From: Escherichia phage EdH4 | Direction: 5' to 3' (one strand) | DNA length: 64,000 bases | Sequence record: MK327930.1 | Shown: in pieces, positions 1 through 12,213 of the stretch | Numbering within the stretch: position 1 is the first letter of the stretch | How the letters are laid out: each line of letters starts with the position of its first letter | Translations under genes and position numbers: made by a program | Notes under the pieces: model-generated | Seen by the model: the letters and a program-made list of their open reading frames with translations, nothing else | What the model was told of the DNA's origin: nothing | Databases searched by the model: none

Positions 1-479
1 GGCGGACGGAATGGGAATACTTCTCATTCTTATAACAATTCTCAAATATCGAGGCAGTGAGGCAAATTAATAGGTGAGGCCGTTCACATAGTGGCACAAC
101 ATTTGCAATCTATTTTGTGTGGGGGAATGAGAATACCTATCATTGTGAGAACTGTTATCATTACGGGCAATTTAACATAATACCCATTATGCGCACCACT
201 GGCGATACATACAGGGATTGATAACATGGGTTACTGTTTACGCACATAACAATTATATTTCTTACTATTTGTGTGGGATATAGTTAGCAGCCGATAGATT
301 AGATATTAACCTGCAGACTTCTGACCGTCCAGACGTCTAAACGCCCACACACCAAGGATTATACATACACTCCTGAATGTAAACAGGGCCGCAAAAATGC
401 TACCATACAAGCTTGTAAATTTTTCATGCAGCACTTGACAAAGAGGAGAAAAACTTGTCTGACATAATGTGACCTAACT

Positions 480-590
480 GACACAACATGACACTTTTAC
501 ACACCTATTAGTTTACACACTGGATTGTTTACATTTCTGATTGTTCACATGCTAACCATTTATATGATTGACTGTTTACACACCGATAAT
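480..590. repeat. Five spaced copies of a (T)GTTTACACA-like motif
   Basis: ttttacacacc, gtttacacac, gtttacattt, gttcacatgc, gtttacacacc at 15-25 bp spacing; resembles DnaA-box or iteron arrays. Confidence 0.5.
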
Positions 591-592
591 CA

Positions 593-843
593 GCCATGCC
601 ATTCGTTTGCATGACAATAATTATACATGACAATAATCGCACTGATTATAATTAGCATGACATAATATAAAAGCAGGGCAACTATTAGCAGATCTATAGT
701 TGCCTTGCTTGTTATGTCATGATTAACTAAATACAAGGCAACTATGATCTGATTAATAGTTTGCAGACAAACTATCACGGGGGTGATGGTTACTGCTTTT
801 ATATTATGTCGCGACTCCGTCGCGCCATGCCATTCGTTTGCAT
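593..843. repeat. 20-bp direct repeat GCCATGCCATTCGTTTGCAT (593-612, 824-843) flanking CATGACA(A)TAAT repeats and GGCAACTAT/ATAGTTGCC palindromes
   Basis: Exact 20-mer twice; 9-bp inverted repeat ggcaactat-N10-atagttgcc at about 677-704 plus further copies; operator-like or origin-like. Confidence 0.55.
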
Positions 844-1460
844 AGTTGCCTTATTGTTACGAATAAAACAATTGCATTGTTAATGATTTCTTATCTTTCT
901 CTTAGTCATCTAATGATTCCAGTCAGTATAGTAATGTACAGTAAACATTAGACGACTAAAGATTTCTCTGTTTATTATAACTCACCGTTATAATTTCGAG
1001 CTGTTTACGAAAAATGTTGACATCCTAGCCGATTTATGTTATGCAGTTTACACGAATAATTATTTTATGCAGGTATTGACTATTCCGTTATTCTATGGTT
1101 GGAATAAATACTTAGCAGGCTATAGACTGGTGAGCGTACGTAAATTCTGAGATCTGGCGGCTATAGTTATACTCGATTTTTCACGTAGAACACGCTTTTG
1201 TGGTTATGTAAGTGCATGACTTATAAAGATTTTTAGTTGTTGACAAGATATTGGAGATGTGCATCAGGTTAAAATTTGTGCAATAGCGGCATTACGTGCA
1301 ATTTTGGAAGGTAAAACGGGTAAAAATGGCCTTGCTACCACACAATGAAAAATTATGCAATAGTTATTTTCCATGTATATTTGTACAGTGTGTGGGATTG
1401 ATGGCTCGTCAATTATTCCACTTGCCAGGTAGGGCCGTTTATGGTAGGAAAAGAGAAGAC

Positions 1461-1485
1461 AAAAAGAAAGGGGCTTTAAGCCCCT
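1461..1485 (-). terminator. Rho-independent terminator ending the minus-strand early gene cluster
   Basis: Hairpin aggggctttaagcccct preceded on plus by an A-run (T-run on minus), just downstream of the stop of CDS 1505..1768. Confidence 0.6.
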
Positions 1486-1504
1486 GACCGTTCATCTTGT
1501 TGTA

Positions 1505-1830: not shown

Positions 1831-2103
1831 TTACTTACGGCGGCAGAATTCAAGAGTTTTTAATTGATAATCTTCCTCAGCCTGGAGTACAACCGCCTCG
1901 ATCATTTCGTTGGCATTGTTGAAGCCATACCCTTTAGCGAACTCATCCGCACCACCTTCGTGATCATGTTCTGCGTTCATCGCTTCCACGAAATGGAATT
2001 CAAGATTATTGAGATAAGGGCTTGATGTTCCGTCCTCTTTTTCGATGAGATCCCAAATAGCATTAAAACGTGATTCGACTTCTTGATTAATCCAGCTTGA
2101 CAT
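1831..2103 (-). CDS. Hypothetical small acidic protein
   Basis: 90-aa ORF; promoter and 5' hairpin upstream. Confidence 0.6.
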   Translation of the reverse strand: MSSWINQEVESRFNAIWDLIEKEDGTSSPYLNNLEFHFVEAMNAEHDHEGGADEFAKGYGFNNANEMIEAVVLQAEEDYQLKTLEFCRRK

Positions 2104-2157
2104 AATGTTTTCCTCTCTTCTGGTTGTTGTGTGGGCACTTTTGCCCCTTCAAGATAA

Positions 2158-11196: not shown

Positions 11197-11354
11197 TTTT
11201 GTACCTCCTCTTCAATTGTTACCTATCCTGTAGCATAGGCCCACCAGGTTTACAAGCCTTCATTCTCCCCTACCTGGTCAGTTAGGTCCTGCCAGGCTGG
11301 CCCCGCCAGGTTGCAGCGGTTAGCGCATCAGGTTAGAAAAATTTTTTGAAAAGT

Positions 11355-11383
11355 GTTGACAGCGGCCCCGCCAGGTGGCACAA
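11355..11383 (+). promoter_or_regulatory. Plus-strand sigma70-like promoter TTGACA-N17-CACAAT pointing into a non-coding region
   Basis: No plus-strand ORF downstream; the GC-rich element begins about 18 nt after the -10. Confidence 0.45.
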
Positions 11384-11400
11384 TATACCTATCGAAAGGA

Positions 11401-11437
11401 CGGCAGGCACCGGTGACGGGGGAGACAACCACCGGGG
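11401..11437 (+). repeat. GC-rich repeated element, copy A
   Basis: cggcaggcaccggtgacgggggagacaaccaccgggg; related to copies at 11555 and 2212. Confidence 0.6.
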
Positions 11438-11500
11438 ATGGGCGCTGCATAAAATGAGAACGGTTATCATTATCATTTAAAAATTTATGCAAAAAAATCC

Positions 11501-11531
11501 TTGCTTTCTTTGTCCTGTGTGATACTATAAT
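11501..11531 (+). promoter_or_regulatory. Plus-strand promoter TTGCTT-N16-TACTATAAT
   Basis: Transcribes toward the AT-rich iteron region; no ORF downstream. Confidence 0.45.
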
Positions 11532-11554
11532 AACAAGCCGGGGCAACAGGGGCC

Positions 11555-11577
11555 GGGAGACAATCACCGGGCCTGCC
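11555..11577 (+). repeat. GC-rich repeated element, copy B
   Basis: gggagacaatcaccgggcctgcc; exact reverse complement of 2212-2234. Confidence 0.7.
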
Positions 11578-11699
11578 CGTTATTCTGCAAACGAGAATGA
11601 TTATCATTCAAAATTCTAAATGAGAACTCCTAGCATTTAATAAATTTAATTAGCACGCTAATTACCCTCCGTAACAATTTACTATAAAATAGTATCCAC

Positions 11700-12190
11700 T
11701 AAAATATTCCCATATAGAAATTTTAAAAATCCATTTCTGAAAACGAAAAATCGATTTCGTCCCCAAAAATTTCAGGTTGAGAGCCGGAACGATTTCCAGA
11801 AAATCCGATTCAGAAAACGAAAAACAGATCGAGTACTGAGAAATTTATCGAGAAAAATTTTCAGAAAATCCAAGCCCTGAAATGAAAAGTAGATCGAGTA
11901 CCTGGAAAGCTGCACCGCAACTTCAAGATAGCGGTTAGATTGTTACCATAGAAGGTCAAGGGTAAGTGGAGGAAGTTCTAGTAGAGAGAGGTTAGCATGT
12001 GTGGGAAATCTATAATGGTGGCCTGGAATATGGTGCAAACGATAGGATGAGTTATTCAGCTTGTCGCGCCTACTCTGAAAAATCCATTTTAGTTTTCGAT
12101 CCATTTTCTGATTTTCTAAGAATTTTAAAATATCCAGCCCGGTGAAATATCAAAAGGAGGAAATCCATTTTAGAAATCCCCCTTATACTT
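11700..12190. repeat. AT-rich non-coding region with iteron-like direct repeats (candidate replication origin)
   Basis: Three copies of a unit agaaaatcc-N-cagaaaacgaaaa-N-agatcgagtac at about 11720-11905, plus aaaatccatttt copies at about 12075-12180; no ORF on either strand. Confidence 0.5.
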
Positions 12191-12213
12191 GATATGCCAG
12201 GAATTTTCAAGTA

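What the first reader, a model, noticed from the sequence alone, without database searches (positions are those of the whole stretch)
480..860. Repeat-dense non-coding region at the left end of the window
Upstream of the terminator that ends the early cluster there is about 1.4 kb without convincing ORFs. It contains five spaced (T)GTTTACACA motifs (DnaA-box-like), a 20-bp exact direct repeat (593-612 and 824-843), four CATGACA(A)TAAT copies, and several GGCAACTAT/ATAGTTGCC palindromes including a perfect 9-bp inverted repeat with a 10-bp spacer. This looks like a protein-binding hub: a second origin, a packaging or terminal-repeat boundary, or a multi-operator control region.
Basis: seen in the sequence. 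Interest (0 to 1): 0.55.

Follow-up and report, generated by a model that had tools for sequence, protein, structure and literature searches.

The report
Repeat arrays beside phage terminal repeat
This is the non-coding DNA that starts at the first base after the 459-bp terminal repeat at the left end of an rV5-like E. coli phage genome; it probably helps cut and package the genome rather than acting as a DnaA-type replication origin, and that role has not been tested experimentally.

Summary
Window 461-860 is the most repeat-dense 400 bp of the 64 kb, and its motifs occur almost nowhere else in the genome.

The window is the left end of a Vequintavirus (rV5-like) phage. In near-identical phages with mapped ends, bases 1-459 are the direct terminal repeat (DTR). 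The finding begins at the first base after it.

Sixteen relatives show a modular layout:
- TGACAY units at about 10-bp spacing, starting at +1 after the DTR in the 14 relatives checked.
- AYTGTTYACRY iterons with a 15-16 bp period, from 1 to about 12 copies.
- A 20-bp direct repeat bracketing an AT-rich repeat spacer and a 168-bp nest of palindromes.

The palindromic cassette is in 117 of 119 records; only phage FV3 lacks it. Similarity between phages falls from about 95% to about 45% exactly at the DTR edge. Inside the cassette, substitutions avoid the repeat arms (P = 0.0008).

Best reading (confidence 0.4): a cis-acting end-processing and packaging platform, laid out like the short-repeat array beside the T7 terminal repeat. 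The cassette would be a dispensable accessory, possibly a small-RNA or terminator unit.

The DnaA-box idea fails: one consensus box here, none in 10 of 14 relatives. An iteron origin is not excluded, but nothing here positively supports it.

The parts
1..459 (.). Left direct terminal repeat (DTR). It is the context that defines the left edge of the feature. It carries outlying iteron-like copies at 234-242 (+) and 378-386 (-).
   Evidence: Exact 459-bp repeat at both ends of the HdK5 record, which is 98.4% identical to window 1-1500 and starts at the same base. Gotham annotates repeat_region 1-459. 90-98% conserved in 16 relatives. Iteron-like copies.
460..495 (+). Module a: four TGAC(A/C) units at 9-10 bp spacing (TGACATAATG / TGACCTAAC / TGACACAACA / TGACACT), starting at the first base after the DTR.
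   Evidence: TGACA sits at +1 after the DTR in the 14 relatives checked, but unit number and sequence vary.
496..590 (+). Module b: six head-to-tail 16-bp iterons (starts 496, 512, 528, 544, 559, 575). Genus consensus is AYTGTTYACRY.
   Evidence: D1; position matrix from 52 copies, period 15-16 bp, 1 to at least 8 strict copies per phage. A further outlying copy lies at 1001-1009.
593..612 (+). Left copy of the 20-bp exact direct repeat GCCATGCCATTCGTTTGCAT.
   Evidence: (D5). Present in all relatives; FV3 has a single copy with one mismatch.
613..655 (+). Module d: AT-rich spacer with CATGACAATAAT twice (610-621, 626-637) at a 16-bp period, and a TATAAT at 647-652. In relatives it is replaced by other AT-rich 12-13-bp repeats and/or a GC-rich hairpin cassette.
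   Evidence: D19; identity 0.60; GC 28% in 601-660.
656..823 (.). Module e: palindromic cassette.
- CATGACATAAT at 656-666, which contains an extended -10-like TGnCATAAT at 658-666.
- 18-bp perfect inverted repeat 659-676/793-810.
- Hairpin or operator O1 at 671-685/696-710.
- Inverted CATGACATAA at 712-721.
- O2 at 737-745/756-764, with a bulge at 760.
- Hairpin 770-791, extendable to 763-796 and followed by T-tract 797-807.
- GC hairpin 811-823.
   Evidence: fold z-scores -7.6 to -8.7 on both strands. Present in 117 of 119 records, 107 of them at 95% identity or more. Absent from FV3. 4 of 146 arm positions vary versus 10 of 59 non-arm positions, Fisher P = 0.0008.
824..850 (+). Right copy of the 20-bp direct repeat (824-843), overlapping a lone ATAGTTGCC half-site (842-850).
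   Evidence: Invariant in the relatives.
851..1468 (.). The rest of the conserved non-coding stretch (84-98% identity). It is AT-rich and has several TTGACA hexamers but no convincing -10 element.
   Evidence: The rV5 paper marks this stretch as a 'non-coding' box and predicts no promoters in it.
1469..1485 (-). Intrinsic terminator that ends the leftward early gene cluster. It is the right-hand limit of the non-coding region.
   Evidence: annotated in HdK5.

Best explanation
The finding is a modular, cis-acting, non-coding element that abuts the inner edge of the 459-bp left direct terminal repeat (DTR) of an rV5-like (Vequintavirus) myophage.

**Proposed mechanism (inferred, not shown).**
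1. During replication the genomes are joined head to tail, with a single DTR copy at each junction.
2. The head-to-tail arrays just right of that copy are TGACAY units in helical phase starting at +1, followed by 15-16-bp AYTGTTYACRY iterons. They would serve as the loading platform for the end-processing machinery, either the small terminase subunit or a partner DNA-binding protein.
3. That machinery would place the cut at 459|460, so that the junction repeat can be duplicated and a unit genome packaged.
4. The downstream cassette bracketed by the 20-bp direct repeat (AT-rich repeats plus nested palindromes) would be an accessory part. One natural phage, FV3, lacks it. It most plausibly stops or insulates transcription entering the junction, or encodes an RNA of about 130 nt.

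**What is shown:** the anatomy, the exact abutment to experimentally mapped ends, uniqueness in the genome, non-coding status, and the conservation pattern.

**What is inferred:** which protein binds, and what the binding achieves.
For: 1. Position. The window starts at base 1 of HdK5, Gotham and bov11CS3, whose ends were mapped from virion reads. The DTR is 459 bp, and the arrays begin at base 460 (PMC6563267; PMC7471380; PMC8407724).
2. Three independent boundaries coincide at 459|460: the mapped DTR end, the first TGACA (invariant at +1 in 14 of 14 relatives), and a fall in between-phage identity from 0.96-0.98 to 0.45-0.50.
3. Modules a and b and at least one copy of the 20-bp repeat are present in every relative checked, including FV3, which lacks the cassette.
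4. The motifs are confined to this locus across 139 kb, as expected for a cis site and not for dispersed operators.
5. T7 has the same layout: a 160-bp DTR, then twelve CCTAAAG units at a 13-bp period from base 175. T5 has nine short direct repeats where its long terminal repeat meets unique DNA (bioRxiv 10.1101/866236).
6. Arrays of short same-orientation repeats next to the cut site are how known terminases recognise their DNA, for example lambda cosB R sites and the P1 pac hexamers (from my own knowledge).
7. Within the cassette, selection acts on the repeat arms (Fisher P = 0.0008).
Against: - There is no binding, cutting or packaging experiment for any Vequintavirus. The small terminase subunit is not even identified.
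- No matching array lies on the other side of the DTR. That side has different repeats, such as CCTGAAGAG.
- Iteron number falls to 1-2 in bov11CS3, PDX and nom, so a large cooperative array is not a conserved requirement.
- Hypervariability could equally mean weak constraint.
- To my knowledge, the function of the T7 array that serves as the model is itself unproven.
- The direction of packaging is unknown, so whether the arrays lie on the packaged side of the cut cannot be said.
Confidence: 0.4

Rival explanations
1. An iteron-type replication origin, possibly a late or rolling-circle origin coupled to packaging. A phage or host initiator would bind the 16-bp iterons, the adjacent AT-rich repeats (601-660) would melt, and the palindromes would assist.
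For: - The order iterons, then AT-rich repeats, then palindrome is the order in ori-lambda (from my own knowledge).
- GC content drops to 28% at 601-660.
- Outlying iteron copies flank the array at 234, 378 and 1001.
- In phage ICP1 a late origin maps next to the packaging end (PMC7145576). The rV5 paper names ICP1 among the closest homologues of the rV5 DNA polymerase.
Against: - No initiator gene is known. The replisome is T7-like, a type that to my knowledge needs no iteron-binding initiator.
- Cumulative GC skew is at its maximum here and at its minimum near 99 kb, and transcription converges on this region. Both point away from an origin, though skew is confounded by gene orientation (the rV5 paper says the same).
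- Iteron number ranges from 1 to about 12.
- DnaA boxes are not conserved.
- FV3 lacks the AT-rich spacer and the palindromes.
Confidence: 0.2
2. The palindromic cassette (about 658-807) is a small-RNA gene on the + strand, or a transcription terminator or insulator. Its parts would be an extended -10 promoter TGnCATAAT (658-666), a start near 672, a 5' hairpin (671-710), an AU-rich linker, a second hairpin, and a terminator hairpin (763-796) followed by UUUUAUAUUAU. This reading is compatible with the arrays having a separate role.
For: - Between-phage conservation begins at ATGACATAAT; position 656, one base upstream, is variable.
- The fold is strong, at -53.3 kcal/mol with z = -7.6.
- The + strand is 6.5 kcal/mol more stable than the - strand, because both imperfect stem positions are G.U on the + strand (sequence).
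- Most of the 14 variable sites, and all three insertions, fall in loops, bulges, linkers or wobble positions. T760A only changes which base is bulged.
- The scan flags a + strand terminator-like hairpin at 770-791.
- Some relatives carry a UUCG-type GC hairpin plus a T-run just upstream.
Against: - The promoter scan does not call this promoter, and the rV5 authors predicted none here.
- There is no Rfam family.
- There is no compensatory substitution, so DNA palindromes bound by protein fit equally well.
- The opposite strand folds almost as well, with z = -8.7.
- FV3 lives without the cassette.
- No expression data exist.
Confidence: 0.2
3. There is no specific function. The arrays are tandem repeats that expand, contract and diverge by slippage and recombination in a tolerant stretch of spacer DNA between two converging transcription units.
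For: Modules a, b and d are the least conserved DNA of the whole 2.5-kb non-coding region (0.45-0.60 identity) and vary widely in copy number. TRF does not even score the window's array.
Against: - Motif, orientation and period (15-16 bp; about 10 bp) are kept across array types that share little other sequence.
- TGACA at +1 is invariant in the 14 relatives checked.
- The variability starts exactly at a functional boundary.
- The cassette's repeat arms are under purifying selection.
Confidence: 0.12
4. A T5-style injection-stop or DnaA trap: host DnaA would bind a cluster of boxes on the first DNA to enter the cell and pause entry.
For: There is a superficial likeness to T5 repeat region 3, a repeat-dense untranslated stretch that straddles the end of a terminal repeat and includes the box variant TTTTACACA.
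Against: - There is one consensus box in the window and none in 10 of 14 relatives.
- No pre-early genes lie between the end of the genome and this site. The first 1.5 kb is non-coding, so a two-step entry would transfer nothing useful.
Confidence: 0.03

Closest known systems
Phage T7 left-end short-repeat array (SRL) beside the 160-bp terminal repeat and concatemer junction
   Same: A short exact DTR is followed, within 0-15 bp, by a one-orientation array of short repeats at a fixed sub-20-bp period, in non-coding DNA at the genome end. Compared directly.
   Different: - There is no sequence similarity (CCTAAAG versus TGACAY and TGTTYAC).
- Here there are two different arrays plus a palindromic cassette.
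- No mirror array lies on the far side of the DTR, whereas T7 has one (from memory).
- rV5-like phages use host RNA polymerase, so the T7 polymerase pause signal at the junction has no counterpart.
- To my knowledge the function of the T7 array is itself unproven.
Phage T5 repeat region 3 (injection-stop region) at the end of the left terminal repeat
   Same: An untranslated, repeat-dense stretch with nested direct repeats, inverted repeats and palindromes that crosses the boundary between terminal repeat and unique DNA, including a run of nine short direct repeats (bioRxiv 10.1101/866236).
   Different: T5 has a 10-kb repeat, eight positioned DnaA boxes and pre-early genes upstream. Here the repeat is 459 bp, DnaA boxes are not conserved, and no genes precede the site.
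Terminase recognition sites next to the cut (lambda cosB R sites; P1 pac hexamer repeats)
   Same: Several copies of a short motif lie immediately beside the site where the genome end is made. This is a functional analogy from my own knowledge.
   Different: Those phages make cohesive ends or package by the headful, not short DTRs. Binding by terminase is proven there and untested here.
Iteron origins (ori-lambda; plasmid oriV)
   Same: Direct repeats, then an AT-rich stretch, then a palindrome, in that order.
   Different: No cognate initiator is known, the period is 15-16 bp instead of about 20-22 bp, copy number ranges from 1 to 12, and the GC-skew and transcription context points the other way.
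Phage ICP1 late (rolling-circle) origin next to its packaging end
   Same: The replisome is related according to the rV5 paper, and there is evidence that a replication start and the packaging end sit together (PMC7145576).
   Different: ICP1 was predicted to package by the headful from a pac site. No coverage time course exists for any Vequintavirus.

Membership tests
T7-type short-repeat array flanking a direct terminal repeat | Genome has a short, exact direct terminal repeat | tested here: met
   459-bp exact repeat at both ends of HdK5. The window holds only the left copy, so for the window's own phage this rests on 98.4% identity and the same first base.
T7-type short-repeat array flanking a direct terminal repeat | One-orientation array of short repeats starting within about 15 bp of the inner DTR edge | tested here: met
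   The arrays start at base 460, which is +1. The T7 array starts at 175, after a 160-bp DTR.
T7-type short-repeat array flanking a direct terminal repeat | A related array on the other side of the junction repeat | tested here: not met
   The 1 kb to the left of the right-hand DTR has no TGACAY or TGTTYAC array.
T7-type short-repeat array flanking a direct terminal repeat | Sequence relationship to the T7 unit | tested here: not met
   CCTAAAG versus TGACAY and AYTGTTYACRY.
DnaA-box cluster (oriC-like or T5 injection-stop-like) | Several matches to TTWTNCACA in a fixed arrangement, conserved in relatives | tested here: not met
   One match (495-503). None in 10 of 14 relatives. The conserved iteron core is TGTTYAC.
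Iteron-type replication origin | Array of at least 3-4 initiator-binding direct repeats, conserved in number | tested here: inconclusive
   Six copies here, but 1 to about 12 in relatives.
Iteron-type replication origin | Adjacent AT-rich unwinding region | tested here: met
   GC content is 28% at 601-660, against 44% for the window.
Iteron-type replication origin | Cognate initiator protein and mapped replication start | not testable with these tools
   No initiator is annotated. The GC skew maximum lies here, which is weak evidence against.
Terminase recognition site (cosB or pac type) | Repeated motif immediately next to the end-forming cut | tested here: met
   The TGACAY units start at the mapped cut, 459|460.
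Terminase recognition site (cosB or pac type) | Bound by the small terminase subunit and required for packaging | not testable with these tools
   This needs EMSA or ChIP, and deletion or transduction assays.
Small-RNA gene with intrinsic terminator | Promoter, stable fold, and a terminator hairpin with a U-tract | tested here: inconclusive
   The extended -10-like element at 658-666 is not called by the scan. The fold z-score is -7.6 on the + strand, but -8.7 on the other strand. A hairpin at 763-796 is followed by a T-tract (and the sequence).
Small-RNA gene with intrinsic terminator | Compensatory base changes, or membership of a described RNA family | tested here: not met
   No double changes among 15 sequences. 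No credible Rfam match.
Miniature mobile element with target-site duplication (for the cassette bracketed by the 20-bp repeat) | Terminal inverted repeats at the element ends, and copies elsewhere | tested here: not met
   The inverted repeats are internal, not at the ends. The cassette occurs once per genome, only in Vequintavirus, and not in E. coli genomes. The FV3 state is better read as a deletion between the two 20-bp repeat copies.

The most novel reading that the evidence does not exclude
The terminal non-coding region is a combined packaging-initiation site and late replication start, as suspected for ICP1. Under this reading:
- The hypervariable TGACAY and TGTTYAC arrays are specificity determinants. 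They would co-evolve with an unidentified phage DNA-binding protein, so that co-infecting vequintaviruses process only their own concatemers.
- The cassette bracketed by the 20-bp repeat encodes a structured + strand RNA of about 130 nt.
Probability: 0.12. Interest if true: 0.65.

Novelty: new variant of a known kind. Interest (0 to 1): 0.4.

Why it matters
How phages with short direct terminal repeats recognise and duplicate their ends is poorly understood outside T7, and even in T7 the repeat array beside the terminal repeat has no proven role.

Vequintaviruses are widely used therapeutic and typing phages. More than 100 genomes are available, and most records are deposited in arbitrary permutations.

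This analysis gives:
- A sequence landmark for the true left end: ...CTTGTC|TGACA, with the DTR starting at GGCGGACG.
- A natural series of array variants, from 1 to about 12 iterons and several sequence types.
- A natural deletion of the palindromic cassette in FV3.

Together these make the function of such arrays directly testable. The analysis also removes a tempting but wrong DnaA-origin label.

Tried and rejected
- **Tandem Repeats Finder** found nothing in 1-2000, because the array units are too diverged. I used in-register comparison instead.
- **Rfam**, at E-value up to 1, gave only a meaningless plant microRNA hit on the palindrome. It gave nothing on the neighbouring conserved region.
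- **The cassette as host-derived or mobile DNA:** no match in 5,426 E. coli genomes. Only two IMG/VR contigs match, both vequintaviruses.
- **A more distant relative for covariation:** phage A5-4 (69% protein identity in the flanking gene) has a non-coding region with different repeats and no alignable sequence, and its ends are not mapped.
- **Coding potential:** rejected.
- **DnaA boxes:** rejected.
- **Dispersed operator:** rejected, because the motifs are unique to this locus in 139 kb.
- **A shared 12-mer upstream of both DTR cuts** (GACCTACAGGAG and GACAAAGAGGAG, 9 of 12 matching). By my estimate this is about what chance gives over the offsets examined, so I dropped it.
- **Resemblance of the TGACA 10-11-bp array to PhoB boxes, and of TGTTTACA to OmpR sites.** These are recalled from memory only. 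The period does not fit well (10 and 16 bp versus 11 and 10 bp), and I did not pursue it.
- **Literature searches** for the function of the T7 repeat array and pacB returned nothing usable.
- **The Certrevirus CB7 paper** gives no end coordinates.

Full report
**What the window is**

Window 1-1500 is 91-98% identical to 110 or more Vequintavirus (rV5-like) phage records. The best match is Escherichia phage vB_EcoM_HdK5, at 98.4% and starting at the same first base.

The ends of three relatives are documented:
- HdK5 ends were determined experimentally. Its record carries an exact 459-bp repeat at both ends, and the paper states 458 bp (PMC6563267).
- Gotham is annotated with repeat_region 1-459 and described as having 459-bp terminal repeats and a fixed packaging start.
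- The bov11CS3 record starts at the same base.

So window 1-459 is the left direct terminal repeat (DTR), and its inner boundary is ...AAAAACTTGTC|TGACATAATG at 459|460. For the window's own phage this is an inference from near-identity.

The leftward early gene cluster ends at the terminator at 1485-1469. In circularly permuted records the gene-free stretch is about 2.5 kb, with the DTR in the middle and transcription converging on it from both sides. The rV5 genome paper drew this stretch as a "non-coding" box and gave it no function or promoters.

Yes.
- Window 461-860 is the most repeat-dense 400 bp in the 64 kb. Repeated 8-mers cover 262 bases, against a median of 47, a 99th percentile of 156, and a maximum of 198 in 1000 simulations.
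- The motifs are nearly confined to this locus, both in the window and in a composite 139-kb genome made from the window plus the rest of HdK5.
- The region is non-coding. The local ORFs have no PHROG family, whereas the adjacent 87-aa gene does. The only persistent open frame has a GTG start, no ribosome-binding site and a variable C-terminus, and its substitutions are mostly non-synonymous.

**Anatomy**

Reading rightward from the DTR:
- **(a) 460-495:** four TGAC(A/C) units at 9-10 bp spacing.
- **(b) 496-590:** six head-to-tail 16-bp iterons.
- **(c) 593-612:** the 20-bp repeat GCCATGCCATTCGTTTGCAT.
- **(d) 613-655:** an AT-rich spacer with CATGACAATAAT twice at a 16-bp period.
- **(e) 656-823:** a nest of palindromes. 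It holds an 18-bp perfect inverted repeat (659-676/793-810) that encloses a 15-bp-arm palindrome (671-710), an inverted CATGACATAA (712-721), a second GGCAACTAT palindrome (737-764) and a hairpin (770-791). A GC hairpin follows at 811-823.
- **(f) 824-850:** the second copy of the 20-bp repeat, overlapping a lone ATAGTTGCC.

Either strand of 590-860 folds with a z-score of about -8.6, so the symmetry is a property of the DNA.

**Comparison with relatives**

I extracted the homologous stretch from 14 GenBank vequintaviruses and two IMG/VR contigs.

The DTR, the cassette and everything from 860 to 1470 are 84-98% identical between phages. Identity collapses to 0.45-0.50 exactly at the DTR edge. 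It recovers at the left copy of the 20-bp repeat and dips again over spacer (d).

The variable modules still keep their logic:
- TGACA is the first five bases after the DTR in the 14 relatives checked.
- The iterons share the consensus AYTGTTYACRY (52 copies), one orientation and a 15-16-bp period.
- The iteron number ranges from 1-2 (bov11CS3, PDX, nom) to about 12 (V5, Murica).
- Spacer (d) is always made of AT-rich short repeats. In some phages it also carries a GC-rich hairpin cassette.

The cassette (e) is present in 117 of 119 records, 107 of them at 95% identity or more. Ten records carry a 33-bp insertion between two hairpins. Only FV3 lacks (d) and (e), and it has a single copy of the 20-bp repeat. 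This looks like a deletion between the two repeat copies, and it shows that this part is dispensable for a viable phage.

Inside the cassette, 4 of 146 positions in repeat arms vary, against 10 of 59 elsewhere (Fisher P = 0.0008). All three insertions fall outside the stems, and T760A merely changes which base is bulged. The repeats themselves are therefore under selection. There are no compensatory double changes, so protein-bound DNA palindromes and RNA or DNA hairpins cannot be told apart.

**What it most likely does**

The strongest clue is position. Three independently defined boundaries coincide at 459|460: the mapped end of the DTR, the first TGACA unit, and the break in conservation.

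The layout matches T7, which I examined directly. T7 has a 160-bp DTR followed by twelve CCTAAAG units at a 13-bp period from base 175. T5 likewise has a run of nine short direct repeats where its terminal repeat meets unique DNA. Known terminase recognition sites, such as lambda cosB and P1 pac, are also short repeated motifs beside the cut (my own knowledge).

I therefore favour a cis-acting end-processing and packaging platform for modules (a) and (b), with the 20-bp repeat possibly part of it. The cassette would be a dispensable accessory. Confidence is 0.4. Nothing about binding or cutting has been tested. No mirror array exists on the other side of the DTR. The iteron count is not conserved.

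**Rivals**

*Iteron origin (0.2).*
- For: the order of iterons, AT-rich stretch and palindrome; 28% GC at 601-660; and the ICP1 precedent of a late origin next to the packaging end.
- Against: no initiator is known; the GC skew maximum is here and the minimum is near 99 kb; transcription converges on the region; and FV3 lacks the AT-rich and palindromic parts.

*Small-RNA or terminator unit in the cassette (0.2). This is compatible with the main reading.*
- For: conservation begins at ATGACATAAT, with position 656 one base upstream variable, and that sequence contains TGnCATAAT; a 5' hairpin; a terminator-like hairpin at 763-796 followed by TTTTATATTAT; the + strand is 6.5 kcal/mol more stable, because both imperfect pairs are G.U on that strand.
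- Against: the promoter is not called by the scan, there is no Rfam family, there is no covariation, and there are no expression data.

*Functionless tandem repeats (0.12).* This rival is weakened by the conserved motif, period and orientation, and by the invariant +1 TGACA.

*T5-like DnaA trap (0.03).* There is one consensus box here and none in 10 of 14 relatives, and no genes lie ahead of the site.

**Novelty**

The DTR and the "non-coding box" are published. In the papers I searched and read, I found no description of the modular repeat architecture, its exact abutment to the DTR, its hypervariable and invariant parts, or the FV3 deletion.

It is a new variant of a known kind of feature, the short-repeat arrays and palindromes that flank phage terminal repeats. 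Interest is moderate. It is not surprising to a specialist, but it offers a natural allelic series for testing a question that is still open even for T7.

Noticed in passing
window 11200-12200: The second most repeat-dense, gene-free stretch of the window. It has a 57-nt unit three times (11713, 11787, 11852) and AAATGAGAACGGTTATCATT-type units at 11452, 11589 and 11618.
   Followed up: partly
window 13-28, 129-144, 147-162 and 11453-11637: The motif GAGAAYNNTTATCATT (up to 2 mismatches) occurs 7 times in the 64 kb. All are in the DTR or in the 11.5-kb non-coding region (expected 1.4; 0 of 100 shuffles reach 7). It resembles a Fur box, from memory. The two non-coding regions may therefore share a binding protein.
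   Followed up: partly
outside the window: L003 (phage pangalan) 2120-2840, roughly HdK5 137,990-138,710: About 720 bp of gene-free DNA to the left of the right-hand DTR is 97-100% identical in 15 vequintaviruses, more conserved than the DTR itself. A near-consensus promoter, TTGACA-16-TGnTAAAAT at L003 2150-2177 (+), points toward the DTR. There is no Rfam match. It is a candidate for an undescribed non-coding RNA.
   Followed up: partly
relatives: L008, L009, L011, L012, L014 (spacer d); L009 (inside the cassette); L021 (about 20 bp left of the DTR start): Small GC-rich hairpin cassettes are inserted at different points of the terminal non-coding region in different phages. The spacer-d and cassette insertions contain GGCTATGCC, and one has a CTTCGG loop. 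They are absent from the window. They could be tiny mobile or terminator modules.
   Followed up: no
relatives, between the non-coding region and the 87-aa gene (for example L008 2956-3375): Many vequintaviruses carry an extra 420-bp gene here. Murica annotates it as 'contains Rel homology domain'. The window, HdK5, Gotham, FV3 and JeffSchatz lack it.
   Followed up: no
search results for window 1-1500: Eighteen records named 'Campylobacter phage' (MG0656xx), with C. jejuni listed as host, are 92-97% identical to these E. coli rV5-like phages. This suggests mislabelled or contaminant assemblies.
   Followed up: no
window 2098-2106: The only other TGACATAAT in the 139-kb composite genome overlaps the start codon and ribosome-binding region of the second gene from the left end (ORF 2103-1831, minus strand). 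An RNA containing UGACAUAAU would be antisense to that translation start. This is probably coincidence.
   Followed up: no
window plus HdK5, whole genome: Cumulative GC skew has its maximum at the genome ends and its minimum near 99 kb, at the divergent promoter region between the polynucleotide kinase and RNA ligase genes. If skew reflects replication at all, that is the better place to look for an origin.
   Followed up: partly
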